From IMG/VR virus record IMGVR_UViG_3300037488_002392: 19,271 nt of DNA. The stretch is one strand, 5' to 3'. The translations under genes were made by a program, and so were the position numbers. Position 1 is the first letter of the stretch; the number at the start of each line of letters is the position of its first letter. This document shows positions 603-17,754 of this stretch, piece by piece. The stretch comes from a virus. Taxonomy: Duplodnaviria; Heunggongvirae; Uroviricota; Caudoviricetes. Below the pieces are notes generated by a model. It worked only from the letters and a program-made list of their open reading frames with translations, ran no database searches and had not been told where the DNA came from.

Positions 603-1768
603 AATTTGACCTCCTTATCTACCAGTACTCCATCTACCGCAATGTGGATGACGTGGTCAACTAAGTTATTATCCAATATAAAACGGGCAACTGCTAGGCG
701 AGTGCCTACCTCGACTTCGCACCCCCACGGAGCGTTAAAATATTCTCCTGCTGTTTCTCCAAAGTCAACTTGGAGACAGCGACCCCACATCCCAGACATA
801 ATTCTTTTTACAATCTTACGCTCCATACCCTTTGCAGTTTCCTTTTTGGTATAAAGCCATTCGATAATCTTCTTGAGAGGGTAGTTTATTTTTTCGGGGA
901 AGAACCACCAAGCTTCATCTAACTGGAAGTCACCGATGCCGTACTTTTTAATGAACTCGATTTCCTTCTTATTCAGGAATGTCTCCCATTCACCTTTGGG
1001 GGTATAGCTTACTTCATTAGTCTTAGAGTAGATAATGGGGGAGAAATCAGATGTTATGTTGACTATTCCTTTAGCATAACCGTAATAGGCATCCTCTTGC
1101 CACTTATCAGTTTTAATCCACGTTCCCAATCGGGTGTCGATGCACTTTGTTAGTTGGAAAGGATATGCGCTGACAATATCTAAGTCATAAACCTTGTCCC
1201 ATTTTCCTACCTGAAATGCTGAGACCCAAGGGCCGTGACAACAGTTATAAGCGTACTCAGATGCTTCGGGGGGGATATCTGCAAAATCGGGTAGGTTTAA
1301 TTTAGAGAATATCTCTTTATCAAATGCGGAAATAGGGCTTACAAGGGTCTTAGGGTGCAGTCCAAGTTTACTTAGGGCATTGTATACCTGCCCACCCAAT
1401 TTGCAGGCTTCCTTAGCCTTATTAAGGGGGTCTCCGACTAAATCCCATCGTTCCATGTACTGAGAAGCGTCAGCCATGACAACGAATTTATCCTCTTTCT
1501 CGATGGAGAAGAATTTCTTGGGGACATACTTAAATTTATATCCTGAAAGTTTTAGTTCGCTGGTTTCGTAGAGTTTGAGTAGATTTGCGTTGCTTATTTT
1601 CAGGATAGAGCATAAATTGCTGACCATGAAATCTAGATGATAACAGATACGTAACGTATCCTTCTCTTTAAGTAGGAATTCGATGTAGGGTGGTTCTTTG
1701 CATATGTCACCATTGGAAGTAACGATGGCACGGCTATCCCTGTCTAAATGATATCCAAGGATTTGCAT
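599..1768 (-). CDS. Short, divergent family-B DNA polymerase-like protein of the protein-primed/organellar-viral type (389 aa)
   Basis: Motif A YDLDIVSAYP, TPR1-like segment (TPKGEWETFLNKKEIEF...IIEWLYTKK), motif B-like KRIMSGMWG, motif C-like IAVDG; the protein ends 8 residues after AVDG. TAATG overlap with the upstream gene. Confidence 0.7.
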   Translation of the reverse strand: MQILGYHLDRDSRAIVTSNGDICKEPPYIEFLLKEKDTLRICYHLDFMVSNLCSILKISNANLLKLYETSELKLSGYKFKYVPKKFFSIEKEDKFVVMADASQYMERWDLVGDPLNKAKEACKLGGQVYNALSKLGLHPKTLVSPISAFDKEIFSKLNLPDFADIPPEASEYAYNCCHGPWVSAFQVGKWDKVYDLDIVSAYPFQLTKCIDTRLGTWIKTDKWQEDAYYGYAKGIVNITSDFSPIIYSKTNEVSYTPKGEWETFLNKKEIEFIKKYGIGDFQLDEAWWFFPEKINYPLKKIIEWLYTKKETAKGMERKIVKRIMSGMWGRCLQVDFGETAGEYFNAPWGCEVEVGTRLAVARFILDNNLVDHVIHIAVDGVLVDKEVKL

Positions 1769-2259
1769 TAACGAGTCCTACGAACCCGCCTAATGAGTTT
1801 GGGTCGGGAGGGGTAAAGAGGACGCTTGGGTATAGTGCGAACCTTAGTGGCTTCATGTAGGTGCCTAGCGTATAATTTTCCGAATGTACGGGTAAGCCTA
1901 CTTCTATTCCTTTTTTTAATGGACGACATAAAATCTGTGAGAGGCTCTTTTCTTCTATATTCGGCTTTGAGGAAATCCCAAGGATTTCGTTTAGCACCTA
2001 GCCTATAATACTCTGAGATTTTCCCCTTTATTTCCATGTCAGTCCATCCAGCTTTGCGAAGGTCTGCACAATATCGTCTACGACTTCTTCGCATCGCTAA
2101 AAATGGCTTAGAATTGAAATTGACATCTTGTTTAACTATATTCCTGGGGCTTGCAGGGGAACCTACGTTTCCACCCGTAGCACGGGAGAACGCTAAAATT
2201 TCCGAGATAGTGAACCCATCATCTAAAAGAAGGCGTTTTTGGTTCTTATTAAGTGCCAT
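1768..2259 (-). CDS. Highly basic hypothetical protein (163 aa), probable nucleic-acid binder
   Basis: Arg/Lys-rich. Start moved to ATG 2259 (MALNK), which has AAGGAG 8 nt upstream. Coupled to the polymerase gene. Confidence 0.75.
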   Translation of the reverse strand: MALNKNQKRLLLDDGFTISEILAFSRATGGNVGSPASPRNIVKQDVNFNSKPFLAMRRSRRRYCADLRKAGWTDMEIKGKISEYYRLGAKRNPWDFLKAEYRRKEPLTDFMSSIKKRNRSRLTRTFGKLYARHLHEATKVRTIPKRPLYPSRPKLIRRVRRTR

Positions 2260-3871
2260 AGTATAATCTCCTTTCACGTACTTGTATTGCTAATGCTGGT
2301 TGGAAAGGGTGGTCAATTCTGTTTCCTAGAGATATGTTGTCTTTCCCCCAAAGAGGGATTAAGTTGCTTTTATCCCAGCACCTACGGAAATCGTAATCAT
2401 TTGGCGTAGTGTAGTTAAACAAGCTGATAGGTATTTTATGATGAACATGCCAACCATGATTTTTGTTGCCGTAGTTATCCCAAGACATACCTTCAGTGAA
2501 GTTATTTTCTAAATGCTCTTTTAGTTCATCTGTTGTATATCCAACTAAATCTTGCCATCGTTTGCTGTTCTTATATCTACGTAGCGAAAGATATAAGTAG
2601 GTGCTCATATTGCTATTCAATCTAACTATTGGGTCTGTTTGTCTTCGTATTCTACATCTATTATTTCCTTTTATGCGTTGGCATTGTTTGCACGTAGTGC
2701 GTATTCCACTGTAAACACCCTCACCCTTCCTGAAGTAGTCAAGAGTAGCTGGGTATATATTATGACAAGTAGTGCATTCCTCTAACAATTTGTAAGCTTT
2801 TTCGAATTTACCCTTTTTATTATATTTGCTACAATCGTAGCACTGGTTTGTGCGTGGTATACCCTTCACTAATATTATCCAAAACCCATTATTGCAAGTA
2901 ATACATTCGTTATACAGGAAGCGAGAGTTACCTTTTCTGCCTATTTCTCTAGCATGTAGTATGTCTCCTATATTTGGAGTATATTTTTTGAGTTGGTCTA
3001 ACGTTAAATATGGGGTTTTAGTCATAGACTTACACATATTGCTTGCACGTATTCTATCGCAATCTAAGCAAGTGAGTGTTTCTGGCTTTCCTCGTTTCAA
3101 CCTTGACCATCTTGTTTTACCGCATGTAGCACAAGCATTCCATATGACCTTCCCTTTCTCTCCTAGCCCTAGTGCTTTACGGTGCCTTATGTCCCCAATC
3201 TGCGGTATATATAAAGATAACTCATTATCAGATAGGGGCTTGATAGCTCGTGATAGCTTGAAGCATTCTAAACATATGTAGCTTTTTTGATGCACTCCTT
3301 TTTTAGTTCTAATCCAATCTTGTTTTTTGCAACCATCACAAGCATACCATTCCCAATAACCACCACTTTCTAAGCCAATATATTTGCTATAACGGATATC
3401 TCCTAATTGCGGGGAATATTTAGCTATTTCTTCAGGAGTGGGAAACTTTTTATTATGTTCAGCTACCCTATGCTCATATCCACATTTAAGACAGCGTTGA
3501 GATACTGGTTTACCTTTCACACAATGAGACCATCTGCCGTTTTTGCAATCATGGCATACATTCCATATCCAGTTACCTTCCCAGCTAACAACCGCACCAA
3601 TTTCCTCAGATGTTCTTATTTCTCCCTCAACTGGGATATGGTCATTAGGAAGCTTAGGTTTTAGTGGAATAAAATTGTTTTCTCCCATAATAATATAGGC
3701 ACATTTGCGGCAATGTGGACTTTGTGGCTTACCTTTTTCATATTGTACCCATCTGCATTCACCACATTTCTCACATGGATACCAAATAAATCTATTTTTG
3801 AAAGAAGTATTGGTTTTGCCAATCTCATATCCCCGCCGTATCTCTCCCAGTTCTGGTTGTTCGATGCTCAT
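2249..3871 (-). CDS. HNH endonuclease with five tandem N-terminal Zn-ribbon repeats and a sixth, different Zn finger (540 aa)
   Basis: Five G[ED]I[RL]-x4-[IL]G...CxxC...W...G...CxxC units (aa ~6-347), then CTTC...CKQC, then a C-terminal GMSWDNYG...WHVHHKIP...NLIPLWGKDNISLGN HNH domain. Confidence 0.8.
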   Translation of the reverse strand: MSIEQPELGEIRRGYEIGKTNTSFKNRFIWYPCEKCGECRWVQYEKGKPQSPHCRKCAYIIMGENNFIPLKPKLPNDHIPVEGEIRTSEEIGAVVSWEGNWIWNVCHDCKNGRWSHCVKGKPVSQRCLKCGYEHRVAEHNKKFPTPEEIAKYSPQLGDIRYSKYIGLESGGYWEWYACDGCKKQDWIRTKKGVHQKSYICLECFKLSRAIKPLSDNELSLYIPQIGDIRHRKALGLGEKGKVIWNACATCGKTRWSRLKRGKPETLTCLDCDRIRASNMCKSMTKTPYLTLDQLKKYTPNIGDILHAREIGRKGNSRFLYNECITCNNGFWIILVKGIPRTNQCYDCSKYNKKGKFEKAYKLLEECTTCHNIYPATLDYFRKGEGVYSGIRTTCKQCQRIKGNNRCRIRRQTDPIVRLNSNMSTYLYLSLRRYKNSKRWQDLVGYTTDELKEHLENNFTEGMSWDNYGNKNHGWHVHHKIPISLFNYTTPNDYDFRRCWDKSNLIPLWGKDNISLGNRIDHPFQPALAIQVRERRLYYGT

Positions 3872-3893
3872 AACTATATTTTACCACATTCAC

Positions 3894-4118
3894 TTAAAGT
3901 TTTTTAAGGTTAGCCATTTTAGATTTATGGATTTCATATTCACGTTTGCCTACTTGTGTAATGGTATCTGTAGCGTTATCGTACACACAATAGGCTGTTT
4001 TCGTATTGATTTTATCTCTGATGATTGTGTAGAGTATATATAATCCAACCAATATAGCGAGTATGAATAGCCAAGGGAAGGCTATGAATAATATAATGGC
4101 TATTATTATTTTATCCAT
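3894..4118 (-). CDS. Small membrane protein (74 aa)
   Basis: Start moved to MDKIIIAIIL (4118), overlapping the upstream stop; long N-terminal hydrophobic stretch. Confidence 0.65.
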   Translation of the reverse strand: MDKIIIAIILFIAFPWLFILAILVGLYILYTIIRDKINTKTAYCVYDNATDTITQVGKREYEIHKSKMANLKKL

Positions 4119-4509
4119 TCTGTTGTCTTGCCTTAACTTCCCTAGCGTGCTCAATCAGGTTCTTAAATTCATCTTGTGGCATAGTACGTTTCCTGCGGGT
4201 TTTCTGCACAACCAAATCATCAATTGGAATTATGTGCAATTTGGTATGCATGTAGTCATTAAGCTCTTGTATGGGGTACTCAAGGGCTTTAGAACAGGCA
4301 ATAATGAATGGGTACTTGTAGGCTAATGTTAATCTGTCGGGGTTGATAGGGTCATTCTTGTCCTTGACCTTGTAGTCTATCCATATCTGGATGTTGCCTT
4401 TGCGTGGCTTTCCCATGTCATCGAGTAAGCGAAAACGTGCAATCCCTATATGGGGAGTTGTCCTGTCTCCGTACCAGATTGGTTGACGCAGATGTATCTC
4501 GTTCATCAA
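4111..4509 (-). CDS. Hypothetical protein (132 aa)
   Basis: ORF in the coupled minus-strand chain, with ATGA overlap at 4506-4509. Confidence 0.7.
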   Translation of the reverse strand: MMNEIHLRQPIWYGDRTTPHIGIARFRLLDDMGKPRKGNIQIWIDYKVKDKNDPINPDRLTLAYKYPFIIACSKALEYPIQELNDYMHTKLHIIPIDDLVVQKTRRKRTMPQDEFKNLIEHAREVKARQQNG

Positions 4510-4691
4510 AATTCACCTACCTCATCATTGATTATCTCCATATTGTATTTACCGTCATCACATTTTGGTGATATGCAGAGTAATTGTGTTTTGATTTTAC
4601 CGTTCTTTTCTACTATATCTATGGCGTTATGATAGCGTGATGATATGTAGAATATCGGTATTAACTCAGTTTTGCATTTAGGGCACTTCAA
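4506..4691 (-). CDS. Small Zn-ribbon protein (61 aa)
   Basis: CPKC ... CISPKCDDG; paralogous to 4688-4888. Confidence 0.65.
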   Translation of the reverse strand: MKCPKCKTELIPIFYISSRYHNAIDIVEKNGKIKTQLLCISPKCDDGKYNMEIINDEVGEF

Positions 4692-4888
4692 AACGGTAAA
4701 TCCTTTGACTCAGGCACGCTGGCATTATGTCTTCCATCATCACAAGAGGGGTTATTGCAGATTAACCAGCATTGGGGGAACCCCTGCTCGTCTTTTATCT
4801 CTATGGGGTTCTTGAAATCCATTGCTATTCCTGCGAAGACTGACTGTAACAATTTTCCGCATTTAACACATCTCATTCGTTTTTCCAC
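4688..4888 (-). CDS. Small Zn-ribbon protein (66 aa)
   Basis: CVKC ... CNNPSCDDG. Confidence 0.65.
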   Translation of the reverse strand: MEKRMRCVKCGKLLQSVFAGIAMDFKNPIEIKDEQGFPQCWLICNNPSCDDGRHNASVPESKDLPF

Positions 4889-5067
4889 TCCTCATGCTTG
4901 AAATATTTGTAGTCACGCTTAGACATGTGTGCCACTATTGCCATAAAGGTTACAATTGTACAGGCGAAGTATTCCCAAGTGTTATTATTGCCTATTATTG
5001 AGTCAATTGCCCAAGGAATAAGGAATCCTATGATTGCGTAAATAAAGTATCGCACGAAGTATTTCAT
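4873..5067 (-). CDS. Small two-TM membrane protein (64 aa)
   Basis: Two hydrophobic segments; GGAGG SD upstream. Confidence 0.65.
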   Translation of the reverse strand: MKYFVRYFIYAIIGFLIPWAIDSIIGNNNTWEYFACTIVTFMAIVAHMSKRDYKYFKHEEWKNE

Positions 5068-5309
5068 TTTGGTTCCTCCTCTATTCGTTTTTCGATAGCT
5101 ACTATGAAATCGCTTACTATTGTGACTAAGTTGCCCAAAGACTGTTTTAATGTGATGGATAAGTAGTGGGTTGATTGTAATCCAACAGTGTAGGATATTA
5201 TTCTACCAGAAAAGGTTTGACCTATTGTTGTGTGAATGGTTACAAATGGTTGCTCATCTACTGATTTACTGTTATCACAATAAGGCAATAAGAGTATTTT
5301 ATCTATCAC
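5064..5309 (-). CDS. Hypothetical protein (81 aa)
   Basis: GTG start next to the upstream stop; ATGA overlap downstream. Confidence 0.6.
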   Translation of the reverse strand: MIDKILLLPYCDNSKSVDEQPFVTIHTTIGQTFSGRIISYTVGLQSTHYLSITLKQSLGNLVTIVSDFIVAIEKRIEEEPK

Positions 5310-8181: not shown

Positions 8182-8298
8182 TCATTTAAGTAATCCGATA
8201 ATTGTTATTATTTTTATTAAGTTACCATTAATAAATATTAGAGTTGTTGCAATGCTTGAAAGTAGTGCAATGATGATAAAGCCTTGTAGGTTAGACAT
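8182..8298 (-). CDS. Hydrophobic peptide (38 aa, not in ORF track)
   Basis: MSNLQGFIIIALLSSIATTLIFINGNLIKIITIIGLLK; AGGAGG SD; paralog of 8062-8169. Confidence 0.7.
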   Translation of the reverse strand: MSNLQGFIIIALLSSIATTLIFINGNLIKIITIIGLLK

Positions 8299-9580
8299 AT
8301 ATCCTCCTATCATTATCCCATGCTAGGGGTATCGATATATCACTATCACCCTGCCTGTTTTTGGCAAGGATTAATTCGGCTGTTCCCCGTAATTCGGGGT
8401 TCTCCATCAAAAGTTCAGGATATTTATCGGGACGGAACATGAGCAGTGCTACGTCAGCGTCCTCCTCCAAGCGACCAGTTTCACGAAAACTAGTGAGAGT
8501 GGGTCTTTTGCTCTTATTGTGCTGGTCTTCTACACCCCTAGATAGTTGTGATAATATAAGTCCAGGCACTTCAAGGGCTTCTAACACTTGTTTTGTTCTT
8601 GTAGAGATTAAGGATACCCTTTCATATGGAGACTTCCCCCCGTCTGCAAATAGTTGAAGGTAATCCACTATGATAGCTGACAACCCATGCGTAAGTTTCA
8701 TAGTTTCTGCTATCCTAAACAGCATATCAGTGGTAACCCCTGCTCCAGTATTAAGTCCTCTTCCCAAAAAGTATATGTTTTTCTCTGCCATCTTAGGCAA
8801 AGTGTTGACTATTTGCTTATAAAACTCATCGTAGTAGTTTCCTATTCTGACAGAGCGAGGATGGACAGCTAACTCAGAGGATATCATTCTATCTAAGAGT
8901 CCTCTCCAATTCATCTCCAACGAAGCGAATAATATATTACCTTGTGTTTGCATATTGTCAGCAATTTGCATTGCAAGGCTGGTCTTTCCGTGGCTCGCAC
9001 GTCCTCCCAGTAGCCACATTTCTCCTTGGAACATTCCCCCCGTTTCATAATCCAATTGTTCGAAACCTGTTTTAATAGAAGTCTTTAATCCGTGAGAGAG
9101 GGTAGCGTATCTGTCTGCTCCCATCAGTGCAAGTTTGTTAGGGGTTATCAGGCTGTCAGTAAGCACTGATTTGCCTATTGTTGATAGCATCTGGTTAGCC
9201 TTTAATAGGTTGTCCTTGGGGTCAACGTTGAGGGATGCCATTGCGCTGATTTGTTCAGAAGCAGAAATAATCTTTCGGTTTACGGAACAGTCCTTAACTA
9301 CTCTGGCATATGATTCTACCCCAACAGATGTCACTGCCCTGGCTACTAAACCAACAATATAGCTAACTCCGCCAGCTTCTTCTAATTTCCCCATCCTATT
9401 TAATTCATGTGGTACAGTAATCTCGTTGGGGGTTTCGCATTTAAGCATGGCAGTATAGATAAGTTGGTGCTCAGAAAGGAAAAAGTCAGATGGCTCTAAA
9501 CTTAAGATTCTTATACAATCGGGGTCAATCAGGATGGCTCCCAGTACCGCCATTTCCCCGTCATCGTTGCGGGGTATCAT
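8291..9580 (-). CDS. dnaB: Replicative DNA helicase DnaB (429 aa)
   Basis: N-terminal EMAVLGAILID, Walker A GGRASHGKTS, IVDYLQL, LSQLSR, RETGRLEEDADV, ILAKNRQG. Start moved to the ATGA overlap at 9580. Confidence 0.93.
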   Translation of the reverse strand: MIPRNDDGEMAVLGAILIDPDCIRILSLEPSDFFLSEHQLIYTAMLKCETPNEITVPHELNRMGKLEEAGGVSYIVGLVARAVTSVGVESYARVVKDCSVNRKIISASEQISAMASLNVDPKDNLLKANQMLSTIGKSVLTDSLITPNKLALMGADRYATLSHGLKTSIKTGFEQLDYETGGMFQGEMWLLGGRASHGKTSLAMQIADNMQTQGNILFASLEMNWRGLLDRMISSELAVHPRSVRIGNYYDEFYKQIVNTLPKMAEKNIYFLGRGLNTGAGVTTDMLFRIAETMKLTHGLSAIIVDYLQLFADGGKSPYERVSLISTRTKQVLEALEVPGLILSQLSRGVEDQHNKSKRPTLTSFRETGRLEEDADVALLMFRPDKYPELLMENPELRGTAELILAKNRQGDSDISIPLAWDNDRRIYV

Positions 9581-9849
9581 TTCATCCACCAACGCCACCG
9601 TGGTAGAAAGGAGTTACTACCACGATGGCTAAGAGAGTAAAGAAGACTCACAAACCAAGAAGGTTTGTAAGCGGAAACGCTTATAGTGGTTATTGGTTTA
9701 TTGATATCAGAATGTTTAAATGAGAATGGTTTGAACCCCTCTACTATAGCACCCCAAGCCAAATCGTTCCACTTACCATGTATGAGCTTGGTGCGTAACT
9801 CTAACTGGGGGGTTCCCCATTCTATTGTGAAAGTAAATGTTTTATTCAC
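9577..9849 (-). CDS. Hypothetical protein (90 aa)
   Basis: Coupled ORF upstream of dnaB; GGGAG SD. Confidence 0.6.
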   Translation of the reverse strand: MNKTFTFTIEWGTPQLELRTKLIHGKWNDLAWGAIVEGFKPFSFKHSDINKPITTISVSAYKPSWFVSLLYSLSHRGSNSFLPRWRWWMK

Positions 9850-16278: not shown

Positions 16279-16320
16279 TACCTTATATATATGTGCTTCT
16301 CTGCGGCAACAGAGGGGTGT

Positions 16321-16364
16321 ACCCCCGTCTTCTCCTTTCATAGGGGCGGGCGGGGGTTTCTTTG
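16321..16364 (+). terminator. Intrinsic terminator after the lipoprotein gene
   Basis: ACCCCCGTC pairs with GGCGGGGGT, followed by TTCTTT. Confidence 0.55.
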
Positions 16365-16373
16365 TGTCCTGAC

Positions 16374-16402
16374 TTGACTTTATGTGCAATAGTATGTATA
16401 AT
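16374..16402 (+). promoter_or_regulatory. sigma70-type promoter
   Basis: TTGACT (16374-16379), 17 bp, TATAAT (16397-16402); ATG follows after 6 nt. Confidence 0.8.
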
Positions 16403-16408
16403 GTCATT

Positions 16409-16555
16409 ATGAAAAGAATTAATTATCACTTAACAGACAAGCAAATCGAGCAATTGAAGGCTATTTCAAAGGAAACGGGTGCCCCCGTGGCGGAACTAAT
16501 ACGGCGGGCGGTGGATGCGTGGTTGCATGAACGGGGGAGGGGTGAAGTAAGATGA
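16409..16555 (+). CDS. Ribbon-helix-helix regulator 2 (48 aa, not in ORF track)
   Basis: MKRINYHLTDKQIEQLKAISKETGAPVAELIRRAVDAWL...; 21 of the first 36 residues identical to regulator 1. Confidence 0.85.
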   Translation: MKRINYHLTDKQIEQLKAISKETGAPVAELIRRAVDAWLHERGRGEVR

Positions 16556-16845
16556 GGGAAGGTTATAATAACTCATTTTATGGTAAGCACCATACTGAAG
16601 AAGCAAAACAGAAGAATAGGGAAGCGCACCTTGGCACCAAATTGAGTGAAGAGACTAAGATGAAGATGAGTGAATCCCATCGCCAAAATGATGTTTGGAC
16701 AGGACGTAAGCATAGTGAAGCATCTATCTTGAAGATGAAGATTGCTAAGTTGGGCAAAAAGGATAGCGAAGAGATGATTTGGGAGAAGTATTGGATACTT
16801 GATGGAGAGCTTTTAATAGGACAAATGTCATTTTTGTATCAATAG
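16552..16845 (+). CDS. NUMOD3-repeat protein without a nuclease domain (97 aa), possible homing-endonuclease remnant
   Basis: FYGKHHTEEAKQK, KLSEETKMKMS, GRKHSEASILKM, GKKDSEE; no GIY-YIG or HNH motif; ATGA overlap with regulator 2. Confidence 0.7.
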   Translation: MREGYNNSFYGKHHTEEAKQKNREAHLGTKLSEETKMKMSESHRQNDVWTGRKHSEASILKMKIAKLGKKDSEEMIWEKYWILDGELLIGQMSFLYQ

Positions 16846-16859
16846 TTCGCCTTCCCCCC

Positions 16860-16888
16860 TTGACAACCACTCTACATAATGTTAATCT
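16860..16888 (+). promoter_or_regulatory. sigma70-type promoter upstream of the intron-containing gene
   Basis: TTGACA (16860-16865), 17 bp, extended TGn-TAATCT (16883-16888). Confidence 0.65.
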
Positions 16889-17078
16889 AAAAACACAATG
16901 ATATGCATTATGCGTGTCGCCATATTCGGCAGTTCGCCGTCAGGTAGTTACGTTCTGTAACTATCGGACGAGCGATGTCTTTTAATTCAAATTGCGTCCC
17001 CATGAGTTCTCACTCTTCAAATGAGATTAAGCTGTCTGCTTGTGTATACGGTGGTTTGCCGAAAGGAAAACTAAGAAC

Positions 17079-17529
17079 ATGATTGGACAGGTCGTAATGC
17101 TCATGATGGTGGGCGTAATCGGCATGATAAGCTTCCAGGTCAATTGGCCCATTTATCTAGTGATAGATAAAATGAACCCAGCTAACTCGGTGAACCCTAA
17201 ACTCTTTGAGCATGGGAATACCGAACTAAATTCAACGAAAGTTGATAAATGCGTAGAGAGCAGAAACTGGGCTTCTCAACGAGAAGATGGTGTGCTCCGA
17301 ACTGCAAGGAAACTTGTAGAATGCTACAGAAATGATAGCGTCACATATCTAAAGATGTGTGGTAACAGATTGCGTGCGTGGCATCGCCACTTCTCTTTGC
17401 TCCAACACCACAGGTTGGTCAACGACAGAGAACGTGCTTATCTGCCAGATAGTAGGTATCGTAGTCGCTTTGGCGATTATAATCCTGCTGTTCATCCTCA
17501 TCGCCAAGTCTGCACAGGGTCTTACTTAA
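17079..17529 (+). CDS. Spliced CDS join(17079..17140,17373..17529): 72-aa two-helix hydrophobic protein, candidate major coat protein
   Basis: 62+157 nt = 73 codons: MIGQVVMLMMVGVIGMISFQVVRGIATSLCSNTTGWSTTENVLICQIVGIVVALAIIILLFILIAKSAQGLT; AAAGGA upstream; many C-ending codons in exon 2. Confidence 0.75.
17141..17372 (+). ncRNA. Group I self-splicing intron (232 nt, no internal homing endonuclease)
   Basis: P1 GGUC-AAUU-GGCC with U-G at the 5' splice site. P2 TTTATCTA-GTGA-TAGATAAA. P3 CCCAG/CTGGG. P4 TCGGT/ACCGA. P6a TCAAC-GAAA-GTTGA. P7 G(A)GAGCA/TGCTCC with bulged A and G-site pair. P8 CTTCTC/GAGAAG. P9 CTGCAAG-GAAA-CTTGTAG. P9.1 and P9.2 hairpins. Terminal G at 17372. Splicing restores a coherent reading frame. 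Confidence 0.9.
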
Positions 17530-17544
17530 ACTAAGTAGTGTCCC

Positions 17545-17575
17545 GTGGGTGGGGTCAATAAAAGGCTCCACCCAC
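17545..17575 (+). terminator. Stable 12-bp hairpin after the spliced gene (terminator-like or 3' stabilizer)
   Basis: GTGGGTGGGGTC pairs with GGCTCCACCCAC; no U-tract follows, so not a canonical intrinsic terminator. Confidence 0.45.
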
Positions 17576-17664
17576 AAAACTATCCATAAAATCTATGGAA
17601 CAAGGGATACAGGACGAAAGCAATAGAACAAAGAACATAAATAAAGGAATAAGGAGAAAAGGAA

Positions 17665-17754
17665 ATGGCGACAAAGAGATATTGCAACAAATGCAAAAAG
17701 TATCATATCAGTGCCAAGATGAAGGCAAAGCACCGCAAAAGCTTAAGGAAGTAA
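17665..17754 (+). CDS. Tiny basic CxxC peptide (29 aa, not in ORF track)
   Basis: MATKRYCNKCKKYHISAKMKAKHRKSLRK; AAGGAG/AAGGA SD. Confidence 0.55.
   Translation: MATKRYCNKCKKYHISAKMKAKHRKSLRK

What the first reader, a model, noticed from the sequence alone, without database searches (positions are those of the whole stretch)
17141..17372. Hidden compact group I intron interrupting a tiny membrane/coat protein gene
Seen: a full P1-P9.2 set can be drawn by eye. P7 is a compensated variant (GAGCA/TGCTC rather than the usual GACTA/TAGTC) that keeps the bulged A and the G-binding pair. GNRA loops cap P2, P6a and P9; there is a U-G splice pair and a terminal G. Removing 232 nt joins CAG GT to C GTG CGT, restoring Gln-Val-Val-Arg and a continuous amphipathic helix. 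Known: phage group I introns mostly sit in DNA-metabolism genes and some late genes. Inference: an intron in a 72-codon structural gene is unusual, hides the gene from ORF callers, and could tie virion production to splicing conditions.
Basis: partly seen in the sequence, partly recalled or inferred. Interest (0 to 1): 0.9.

Follow-up and report, generated by a model that had tools for sequence, protein, structure and literature searches.

The report
Self-splicing intron splitting tiny phage gene
A 232-base self-splicing (group I) RNA intron really does interrupt a 72-codon membrane-protein gene of an uncultured sediment phage. It belongs to a family of introns without a gene of their own that has invaded the same tiny gene at four different spots in related phages.

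Summary
Confirmed. Window 17141-17372 (+) is an intact group I intron with no gene of its own.

- **Junction.** Removing it joins CCAGGT to CGTGCG and gives a 72-aa two-helix membrane protein. At least 27 uninterrupted 71-74-aa homologues carry the same ISFQ-V-VRGIATS junction. One intron-less allele (L062) has the identical 17-nt empty site.
- **Rfam.** Rfam misses the intron at default settings. On a 291-nt slice it scores 29.1 bits over the full model, below the cut-off of 50. Eleven of the 18 family-copy matches in 17 related loci, including one copy in the same gene, score over 50.
- **Structure.** A model built from four copies found 67 matches. In these, 92% of pair cells are paired and 60 of 66 pairs show double changes. 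The P7 pseudoknot, bulged A and G-binding pair are kept. The same model also finds the proven Twort orf142 and T4 nrdD introns.
- **Spread.** Relatives carry family members at codons 5, 11, 21 and 36/37 of this gene, up to three at once, nearly always after GGT.
- **Neighbour.** A slot for free-standing nuclease genes lies just upstream; in the window it holds a remnant.
- **Unexplained.** The family avoids stop codons in the frame entered from the upstream exon.
- **Not shown.** Splicing itself is supported only by relatives' RNA contigs. A coat function for the gene is not shown.

The scan earlier reported a similar multi-intron tiny gene on other DNA.

The parts
16860..16888 (+). Candidate sigma-70-type promoter of the gene (TTGACA, 17 nt, TAATCT)
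   Evidence: Read directly from the sequence. A TTGACA-17-TATAGT site sits at the equivalent place in L002. The consensus scan did not list it, because the -10 hexamer matches only 3 of 6. Candidate only.
17049..17061 (+). Small conserved hairpin in the 5' leader, just before the ribosome-binding site (AAGGA 17063-17067)
   Evidence: The stem changes with compensation between copies while the loop GGTYTG is kept: window CGG..CCG, L005 GAGG..CCTC, L002 GAAGC..GCTTC. Seen by eye only; no statistics were run.
17079..17140 (+). Exon 1: codons 1-20 plus the first two bases of Val21 (MIGQVVMLMMVGVIGMISFQ + GT)
   Evidence: tblastn of the spliced protein gives 100% over residues 1-21. Matches to intron-less alleles stop at 17140/17141.
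17141..17372 (+). Group I intron, 232 nt, no gene of its own. P1 17138-17141/17146-17149; P2 17152-17171; P3 17177-17181/17267-17271; P4 17187-17192/17219-17224; P5 17195-17197/17214-17216 with hairpin 17202-17210; P6 17232-17245; P7 17256-17262/17293-17298; P8 17272-17286; P9 17302-17319; P9.1 17323-17339; P9.2 17342-17359; terminal G 17372
   Evidence: RF00028 scores 29.1 bits, E 8e-6, over the full model. The family model R1 scores 266.5 bits. The window copy keeps all 54 columns that are at least 90% conserved in 43 other distinct copies.
17373..17529 (+). Exon 2: third base of Val21, codons 22-72 and stop TAA (17527-17529)
   Evidence: tblastn gives 100% over residues 22-72. Matches to intron-less alleles start at 17373.
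17079..17534 (+). Read-through frame of the unspliced RNA: exon 1, the whole intron without a stop, then exon 2 out of frame (151 aa from the ATG; 164-aa ORF from TTG 17040)
   Evidence: It is held in the protein database as P0029. Avoidance of stops in this frame across the family is shown.
17545..17575 (+). Strong 10-bp hairpin after the stop codon, with no T-run
   Evidence: Read directly from the sequence. The terminator scan did not call it.
16552..16845 (+). 97-aa ORF with NUMOD3 motifs only: a truncated homologue of a free-standing NUMOD3+HNH endonuclease that occupies the same slot in L019
   Evidence: Pfam NUMOD3 7.4e-13. PHROG homing endonuclease 4e-6. 53% identity to L019:7-693, which carries NUMOD3 plus HNH.
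16382..16555 (+). Ribbon-helix-helix (Arc/CopG-like) protein, a conserved neighbour
   Evidence: Pfam RHH_3 1.7e-7; PHROG Arc-like repressor. 88% identical in L030 and L043.

Best explanation
Window 17141-17372 is a functional group I ribozyme intron in the pre-mRNA of a small phage gene.

**How it works (inferred from established group I chemistry).** The RNA folds into the standard P3-P9 and P4-P6 domains. The guide sequence GGCC pairs with the exon end GGU plus the first intron base, so U17140 sits in a U.G wobble. A free guanosine bound at the G-C pair of P7 attacks after U17140. The terminal G17372 then takes the same pocket, and the exons are joined to CCAGGU-CGUGCG. The spliced mRNA encodes a 72-aa protein made of two transmembrane helices.

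**Mobility (inferred).** The intron carries no endonuclease gene. It belongs to a family of ~230-nt introns that sit after GGU at codons 5, 11, 21 and 36/37 of this same gene and in similar small genes. Its nearest relative (79% identity) sits at codon 5, where the exon context CAGGT^CGT is the same. I infer that it reached or moved between these sites either by reverse splicing into GGU sites or through free-standing nucleases encoded just upstream.

**Shown:** the structure, the conservation, the exact junction, and presence/absence of the intron among alleles. **Inferred:** catalysis, splicing in this phage, and the route of spread.
For: 1. **Exact junction.**
   - 27 database proteins of 57-74 aa (most 71-74 aa), 72-92% identical, cover 78-100% of the conceptual spliced product and are contiguous across ISFQ-V-VRGIATS.
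   - The intron-less allele L062 has TTCCAGGTCGTGCGTGG uninterrupted, and blastn matches to intron-less alleles break at 17140/17141 and 17373.
2. **Ribozyme identity.**
   - RF00028 matches over its full length at 29.1 bits, E 8e-6.
   - Family copies in 17 related loci score 30-89.5 bits, and 11 of 18 are over the cut-off of 50. These include a copy at codon 36/37 of the same gene (70 bits).
   - The family model R1 finds the Twort intron triplet (65.9, 48.9 and 35.4 bits) and the T4 nrdD intron (49.5 bits).
3. **Covariation.**
   - Four copies alone give 38 of 66 pairs with compensatory changes.
   - In 61 distinct copies, 92.1% of pair cells are paired, against 60.4% shuffled and 34-40% slid, and 60 of 66 pairs show double changes.
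   - All six P7 pseudoknot pairs are kept in 46-52 of 51-52 rows, with covariation.
4. **Intactness.** The window copy keeps all 54 columns that are at least 90% conserved. Both exons keep their reading frame.
5. **Family behaviour.** The same gene carries introns at four sites. L001 carries three at once and still splices conceptually to the full protein. 31 of 44 distinct copies follow GGT.
6. **RNA hint.** Two contigs of a freshwater-sediment metatranscriptome join the exon 1 end directly to 17373. No such joint stands in the three DNA runs laid.
Against: - The window copy scores below Rfam's gathering cut-off (29.1 against 50). It is invisible to whole-window and 1.4-kb scans.
- There is no RNA evidence from this phage itself. 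The joined RNA contigs come from relatives 86-90% identical and could derive from intron-less alleles, which exist in nature, or from DNA in the RNA library.
- P1 offers only three exon base pairs and P10 is at best two pairs, so splice-site choice may need help.
- The upstream reading frame runs through the whole intron without a stop. By the rule stated in PMC3073962, this should let ribosomes disturb folding.
- No in vitro test exists.
- The tree cannot decide whether the codon-21 introns have one origin (AU p 0.36).
Confidence: 0.92

Rival explanations
1. The unspliced RNA is also, or instead, translated. The 151-aa read-through protein (exon 1, about 77 intron-encoded residues, then exon 2 out of frame) would be a real second product, so the intron would be dual-coding.
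For: - The exon-1 frame has no stop from 17079 to 17534.
- In the matching frame, 19 of 45 distinct family copies have no stop at all, against 0 of 45 in either other frame.
- In variable alignment columns, stops number 22 in this frame against 120 and 165 in the other two.
- 9 of 12 copies in this gene are entered by the upstream exon in this open frame.
- Database ORFs of up to 263 aa run through three introns in a row.
Against: - Intron lengths are mostly not multiples of three (228-247 nt), so the downstream exon is read out of frame and the tails differ between alleles.
- The 'peptide' conservation follows the RNA core, and the variable parts change as base pairs.
- No protein family matches were seen.
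- Stop avoidance could serve ribosome transit rather than a product.
Confidence: 0.15
2. The element is a dead relic. It was once a group I intron but no longer splices, so the gene is a pseudogene in this phage.
For: - The Rfam score is low.
- P7 is non-canonical.
- The neighbouring endonuclease gene is degenerate.
- Relatives carry tandem second copies of the gene that could compensate.
Against: - All 54 highly conserved columns are kept.
- The P7 changes are compensatory and recur in other copies.
- Both exons keep an intact frame, start, stop and ribosome-binding site.
- No second copy of the gene was found in the window.
Confidence: 0.04
3. Route of spread, alternative A. The family moves at the DNA level through free-standing homing endonucleases encoded just upstream of the target gene. 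The intron breaks their target site and is co-converted with them.
For: - The slot between the RHH gene and the target gene holds a NUMOD3+HNH gene in L019, its NUMOD3-only remnant in the window, and a protein with five DUF4379 zinc fingers in L030/L043.
- The window's intron is closest to the L019 intron.
- Trans-acting endonucleases that mobilise introns lacking an ORF are described for T4-type phages (PMC3984707).
Against: - No cleavage site is known.
- Four sites in one 216-nt gene that share only GGT would need a very relaxed nuclease or several nucleases.
- The association rests on a few loci.
Confidence: 0.35
4. Route of spread, alternative B. The family transposes by reverse splicing into GGU sites of RNA, followed by copying back into DNA.
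For: - 31 of 44 distinct copies follow GGT, which matches the conserved guide sequence.
- Four of the seven GGT sites of this gene are used.
- Codons 5 and 21 share CAGGT^CGT and carry the most similar introns.
- The reverse-splicing model needs only 4-6 paired bases (PMC3984707).
Against: - No reverse transcriptase was seen in the window or the loci.
- The pathway has no direct experimental support for group I introns (PMC3984707).
- The preference for GGT is equally required for forward splicing after any mode of insertion.
Confidence: 0.35

Closest known systems
Staphylococcus phage Twort orf142 introns (three group I introns in one gene; Landthaler and Shub 1999, cited in PMC3073962)
   Same: - Small group I introns without an ORF, several in one short phage gene.
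- The family model built here finds all three Twort copies (65.9, 48.9 and 35.4 bits).
- They lie in an unannotated gap between ORFs, as here.
   Different: - No room here for the P7.1/P7.2 hairpins of subgroup IA2: only 4 nt lie between P7 and P3'.
- The host gene is half the size.
- Four insertion sites are used in different combinations among alleles.
- The family keeps the upstream frame open.
- Twort copies score 64-101 bits with Rfam, against 29 for the window copy.
Phage T4 nrdD (sunY) and td introns
   Same: Same ribozyme class in a phage protein-coding gene. The nrdD intron is found by the family model at 49.5 bits.
   Different: - The T4 introns carry homing endonuclease genes (I-TevII is annotated inside nrdD).
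- They sit in nucleotide-metabolism genes.
- Most group I introns are said to have an early in-frame stop (PMC3073962).
Compact bacterial tRNA introns of subgroup IC3 (Azoarcus tRNA-Ile, cyanobacterial tRNA-Leu)
   Same: From memory only: similar size (about 200-250 nt), no P5abc extension and no P7.1/P7.2. GNRA loops cap P2 and P9. P5 has a CCUAA...UGG-type internal loop that looks like a GAAA receptor.
   Different: Not tested here, because no subgroup models were available. The host is a protein-coding phage gene, not a tRNA, and there are extra P9.1 and P9.2 hairpins.
Free-standing endonuclease plus ORF-less intron pairs (T4 mobE with the nrdB intron; trans homing, PMC2790892; review PMC3984707)
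   Same: An intron without its own nuclease lies next to a free-standing HNH-type nuclease gene.
   Different: No activity or target is known here. In the window the nuclease gene is reduced to its DNA-binding motifs.
Cluster J mycobacteriophage introns in capsid and tail genes (PMC3706429)
   Same: Group I introns in late or structural phage genes. Distant members of the present family also sit in major head protein genes.
   Different: These are single introns in large genes. No multi-site colonisation of one tiny gene is reported in the abstract seen; the paper was not read in full.

Membership tests
Group I intron (Rfam RF00028) | P1 helix with a U.G wobble at the 5' splice site | tested here: met
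   U17140 pairs with G17147. The pair is UG in 39 of 51 rows of the family alignment.
Group I intron (Rfam RF00028) | Terminal G at the 3' splice site | tested here: met
   G17372. The empty-site allele fixes the boundary.
Group I intron (Rfam RF00028) | P3/P7 pseudoknot enclosing P4-P6 and P8 | tested here: met
   P3 is 98.1% paired, with all five pairs covarying. All six P7 pairs are kept, with covariation.
Group I intron (Rfam RF00028) | Guanosine-binding G-C pair in P7 next to a bulged nucleotide | tested here: met
   G-C in 50 of 51 rows and bulged A in 52 of 54. Both are present in the window.
Group I intron (Rfam RF00028) | Score at or above Rfam's gathering cut-off (50 bits) | tested here: not met
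   The window copy scores 29.1 bits and gives no hit at default settings. Close relatives do pass: 11 of 18 matches, up to 89.5 bits. PMC11878797 calls the Rfam model incomplete.
Group I intron (Rfam RF00028) | Removal restores a continuous, conserved coding sequence | tested here: met
Group I intron (Rfam RF00028) | Guanosine-dependent self-splicing | not testable with these tools
   Only an indirect hint exists: joined exons in RNA contigs of relatives.
Subgroup IA2 (T4 and Twort type) | P7.1/P7.2 hairpins between P7 and P3' | tested here: not met
   Only GAAA (17263-17266) lies between P7 and P3'.
Subgroup IC3 | Match to a subgroup-specific model or alignment | not tested
   No subgroup models were available. 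The resemblance is from memory only.
Mobile group I intron with its own homing endonuclease | Endonuclease ORF in a peripheral loop | tested here: not met
   The 232 nt are all helices. The only open frame is the read-through frame.
Spindle-virus major capsid proteins (Pfam His1_capsid, VP1_VP3), for the host gene | Significant match to the family profile or fold | tested here: not met
   - No Pfam hit, even at E up to 10, for 23 homologues.
- Language-model likeness is 0.86-0.89, a lead only.
- The SSV19 chain ranks 24th at E 4.2 in the fold search.

The most novel reading that the evidence does not exclude
This intron family is under selection to stay translatable. The unspliced precursor, even with three introns in a row, is one continuous reading frame entered from the upstream exon. 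Ribosome passage through the ribozymes would then be part of how these densely packed, near-identical introns fold and splice, or the frame would yield a second protein. In the same reading, the family multiplies within a 216-nt gene by inserting at GGU sites, which would be natural evidence for spread of group I introns by reverse splicing.
Probability: 0.25. Interest if true: 0.8.

Novelty: new variant of a known kind. Interest (0 to 1): 0.62.

Why it matters
- **Annotation.** The gene is mis-annotated in public data as a 151-aa hypothetical protein. Standard Rfam scans miss the intron, so such introns are probably under-counted in phage metagenomes.
- **Intron mobility.** Related introns without a gene of their own sit at four GGT sites of one 72-codon gene, in different combinations. 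Intron-less alleles with identical empty sites exist, and a variable nuclease slot lies next door. This is a compact natural system for testing how ORF-less group I introns move, by reverse splicing or by trans-acting nucleases. Reviews state that this question lacks direct evidence.
- **Translation and splicing.** Stop-codon avoidance through a whole ribozyme runs against the usual rule of an early in-frame stop. It points to an unstudied interplay of translation and splicing.

Tried and rejected
- **Rfam at lower sensitivity.** Gathering threshold on the whole window and E-value mode on 1.4 kb gave no group I hit. Only a 291-nt slice did.
- **Public phage collections.** blastn of 16300-17700 against cultured phages gave no match. 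The exon-2 peptide and a 22-nt intron word found nothing in IMG/VR. No whole genome is held for the window.
- **Function of the 72-aa protein.**
  - Pfam and PHROGs gave nothing, and the PDB profile search gave only chance-level rows.
  - The AlphaFold model is a two-helix hairpin (pLDDT 79.5). Fold searches gave only generic membrane hairpins with E above 0.1.
  - The Atlas likeness to His1/SSV capsid proteins is below the level that counts.
- **Tree tests.** AU tests could not reject one origin for the codon-21 introns (p 0.36) or for the codon-5-plus-window group (p 0.17).
- **Read laying.** Depth figures are per contig and cannot rank exon against intron. Uncovered parts say nothing. The joined RNA contigs are from relatives, not from this phage.
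- **Earlier scan notes by sequence.** These returned only this same stretch. I could not show that the earlier 'six introns in one tiny gene' case is the same family.
- **Discarded results.**
  - One alignment row (L028) was taken from the wrong coordinates and is ignored.
  - The terminator-like site at 17378-17390 lies inside exon 2 and the promoter-like site at 17144-17173 lies inside the intron. Both are at chance level.
  - A two-pair 'helix' between the exon flanks in the model-fitted alignment was set aside as a likely fitting artefact.
- **Programmed frameshift or ribosome hop.** Considered and dropped, because the RNA is a complete ribozyme.

Full report
**The sequence.** The window is a piece of an uncultured phage.
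- It carries a DnaB-type helicase at 8291-9598 and a DNA-polymerase-like ORF.
- Its own contig is at least 92.8 kb.
- Earlier notes of this scan describe a giant protein further along the same genome.

At 17079 an ATG follows AAGGA and opens MIGQVVMLMMVGVIGMISFQ. This frame then runs on without a stop to 17534, giving the 164-aa ORF 17040-17534. A second frame carries VRGIATSLC...AKSAQGLT up to TAA 17527-17529. Cutting out 17141-17372 joins CCAGGT to CGTGCG and gives a 72-aa protein.

**Is the junction real?** Yes.
- A search with the conceptual 72-aa product found 27 proteins that are 72-92% identical and cover 78-100% of the query. Most are 71-74 aa long.
- In the alignment the stretch ISFQ-V-VRGIATS is contiguous in all of them.
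- DNA of intron-less alleles was fetched (L002, L005, L006, L061-L064). L062 reads TTCCAGGTCGTGCGTGG, letter for letter the window's exon 1 end plus exon 2 start.
- blastn matches of the window to these loci stop at 17140/17141 and resume at 17373.

So the 232 nt are a precise insertion relative to empty alleles.

**Is it a group I intron?** Rfam finds nothing in the whole window or in 1.4 kb. On 17110-17400 it aligns RF00028 from end to end at 29.1 bits, E 8e-6. That is under the gathering score of 50. The stretch folds better than all 200 shuffles (z = -3.3).

The stronger evidence is comparative.
- A relative of the same gene (L001) carries three related introns at other positions.
- Four copies aligned give 66 predicted pairs, 38 of them with compensatory changes.
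- A covariance model of these four (R1) found 67 matches in 39 sources. The sources came from a core-motif scan that found 8 viral and 30 metagenome loci.
- On that alignment 92.1% of pair cells are standard pairs, against 60.4% after shuffling and 34-40% with partners slid. 60 of 66 pairs show changes on both sides. The caveat is that this alignment was fitted to the model.
- The one weak 'helix' in that count overlaps P7, which RNAalifold cannot draw. Counted as a pseudoknot, all six P7 pairs hold in 46-52 of 51-52 rows. The bulged A is present in 52 of 54 and the G-binding G-C pair in 50 of 51. The inner pairs covary.
- Most copies have GACUA/UAGUC.
- The window copy deviates at none of the 54 columns that are at least 90% conserved in 43 other distinct copies.

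**Controls.**
- R1 finds three introns in Staphylococcus phage Twort (65.9, 48.9 and 35.4 bits). They lie in the unannotated gap where orf142 is published to lie.
- R1 also finds the T4 nrdD intron (49.5 bits).
- RF00028 scores those known introns at 64-105 bits and the L008 copies at 67-75 bits.
- In 17 related metagenome loci, 11 of 18 family-copy matches pass the cut-off of 50. These include the codon-36/37 copy in L001 (70 bits). The codon-5 copy in L001 is just below, at 48.1 bits.

The window copy is therefore a divergent but connected member of RF00028. It lacks the P7.1/P7.2 hairpins of subgroup IA2. By architecture it looks like the compact IC3 type, but that rests on memory and was not tested.

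**The family and its sites.** tblastn of the 72-aa protein and the model matches place introns at four sites of this gene.

| Site | Exon context | Loci |
|---|---|---|
| codon 5 | CAGGT^CGT or CAGGT^TGT | L001, L019, L021, L028 |
| codon 11 | ATGGT^ | L001, L017, L018, L022, L030, L043 |
| codon 21 | CAGGT^CGT | window, L018, L022 |
| codon 36/37 | TGGT^C | L001, L017, L020, L030, L043 |

- L001 has three introns at once and still splices conceptually to the full protein.
- The spliced gene has seven GGT sites, and four are used. 31 of 44 distinct copies follow GGT, matching the conserved guide sequence.
- Other copies sit in similar small two-helix genes with an N-T-T/S loop, up to three per locus (L023 and others).
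- More distant copies sit in major head protein genes: L009 strongly, L039 weakly.
- L008, an IMG/VR contig, holds eight or nine copies.
- The window has only one copy.
- By identity the window intron is nearest to the codon-5 intron of L019 (79%, support 85/99). It is further from the two other codon-21 introns (66-69%). The AU test does not reject a single origin for the codon-21 introns (p 0.36).

**How it may move.** The intron has no gene of its own. Just upstream of the target gene is a variable slot:
- L019 has a 228-aa NUMOD3+HNH endonuclease.
- The window has its 97-aa NUMOD3-only homologue (16552-16845, 53% identical).
- L030 and L043 have a 509-aa protein with five DUF4379 zinc fingers.

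This fits homing driven by trans-acting nucleases, which is known for T4-type phages (PMC3984707). The GGT rule and the shared CAGGT^CGT context of codons 5 and 21 fit reverse splicing equally well. The same review says reverse splicing lacks direct evidence. I cannot separate the two routes.

**Splicing in nature.** One RNA library (freshwater sediment) holds two contigs that join the exon 1 end directly to 17373. The intervening letters TTCATTCCAGGT are simply a relative's version of the exon end.
- None of the three DNA runs laid shows such a joint.
- A DNA run of the same study holds an intron-bearing allele.
- The RNA contigs come from relatives 86-90% identical. Their leader resembles L028, which carries a codon-5 intron in DNA.

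Because intron-less DNA alleles exist, this is a hint, not proof.

**An unexplained property.** PMC3073962 states that most group I introns have an in-frame stop just after the 5' splice site. Here the opposite holds.
- In 9 of 12 copies in this gene, the upstream exon's frame stays open through the whole intron.
- In the frame anchored on AAT TCG GTG AAC CCT AAA, 19 of 45 distinct copies have no stop, against none in the other two frames. Mean stops are 2.2 against 6.1 and 6.5.
- Counting only stops that touch variable alignment columns, the figures are 22 against 120 and 165. Sixteen of the 22 come from two outlier copies.
- These loci were found by a DNA motif, not by ORF calling, so the signal is not a search bias.
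- Distant copies (L007-L011) do not show it.
- Database ORFs of 237-263 aa run through three introns in succession, each time in this same intron frame.
- Lengths are mostly not multiples of three, so a constant second protein is unlikely.

Selection for ribosome passage through unspliced RNA is my preferred guess, and it is untested.

**The host gene.** Its product is predicted as two long helices (2-33 and 40-71, pLDDT 79.5). It has a conserved C-x-N-T-T-G-W loop and a second conserved cysteine. No family could be assigned. A language-model likeness to spindle-virus capsid proteins (0.86-0.89) is only a lead. The labels 'coat' and 'structural' therefore remain open.

**Verdict.** As an object it is a group I intron, a known kind. 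As a family it shows unusual behaviour: dense multi-site colonisation of a tiny gene and stop-codon avoidance. This scan has seen a similar multi-intron tiny gene once before on other DNA (e1-1697703). I found no description of this behaviour in the papers I searched.

Noticed in passing
window 17079-17534; L001, L017, L018, L019, L020, L021, L023, L028, L029, L043: The intron family avoids stop codons in one frame over its whole length: 19 of 45 copies have none, against 0 of 45 in either other frame. That frame is usually the one entered from the upstream exon. ORFs of up to 263 aa run through three introns in a row. This is contrary to the usual early in-frame stop.
   Followed up: partly
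window 16552-16845; L019:7-693; L043:4573-6102: A variable slot for free-standing nuclease-type genes lies directly upstream of the intron-bearing gene. It holds NUMOD3+HNH in L019, a NUMOD3-only remnant in the window, and a protein with five DUF4379 zinc fingers in L030/L043.
   Followed up: partly
window 17049-17061; L002:2930-2950 and 3218-3240; L005:1556-1572 and 1896-1915 (approximate): A small hairpin sits just before the ribosome-binding site of every copy of the gene. Its stem changes with compensation and its loop GGTYTG is conserved. It may be a binding site for a translational regulator.
   Followed up: no
L002:2958-3174 and 3257 onward; L005:1585-1806 and 1931-2152; L022:909-1136: Intron-less relatives carry two tandem paralogues of the small membrane-protein gene. 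The window has a single, interrupted copy.
   Followed up: no
L008 (IMGVR_UViG_3300037067_001909), about 1113-5119: One 19-kb viral contig holds eight or nine related group I introns within 4 kb. Several of them score over Rfam's cut-off.
   Followed up: partly
L065:4814-5070 (OZ241372.1, Anaerolineae MAG chromosome): A family member (126 bits with R1) follows codon 89 of a ThyX-like ORF in a bacterial chromosome. No continuation of thyX was found in the next 700 nt, so this may be a gene remnant or phage-derived DNA. It is the only hit among 185,579 species genomes and a weak hint at the host lineage.
   Followed up: partly
L009:1122-1344; L039:2053-2273: More distant copies of the same intron model interrupt major head protein genes (PHROG 9953 at 1.6e-23 for L009; weak for L039).
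   Followed up: partly
window 17545-17575: A ten-base-pair G+C-rich hairpin follows the stop codon without a run of T. It may be a stabiliser or a terminator of unusual type.
   Followed up: no
window 17079-17529 (spliced product) and homologues P0001-P0026: Protein-language-model features place the 72-aa protein nearest to clusters named His1 capsid and SSV VP1/VP3 (0.86-0.89). Profile and fold searches do not confirm this.
   Followed up: partly
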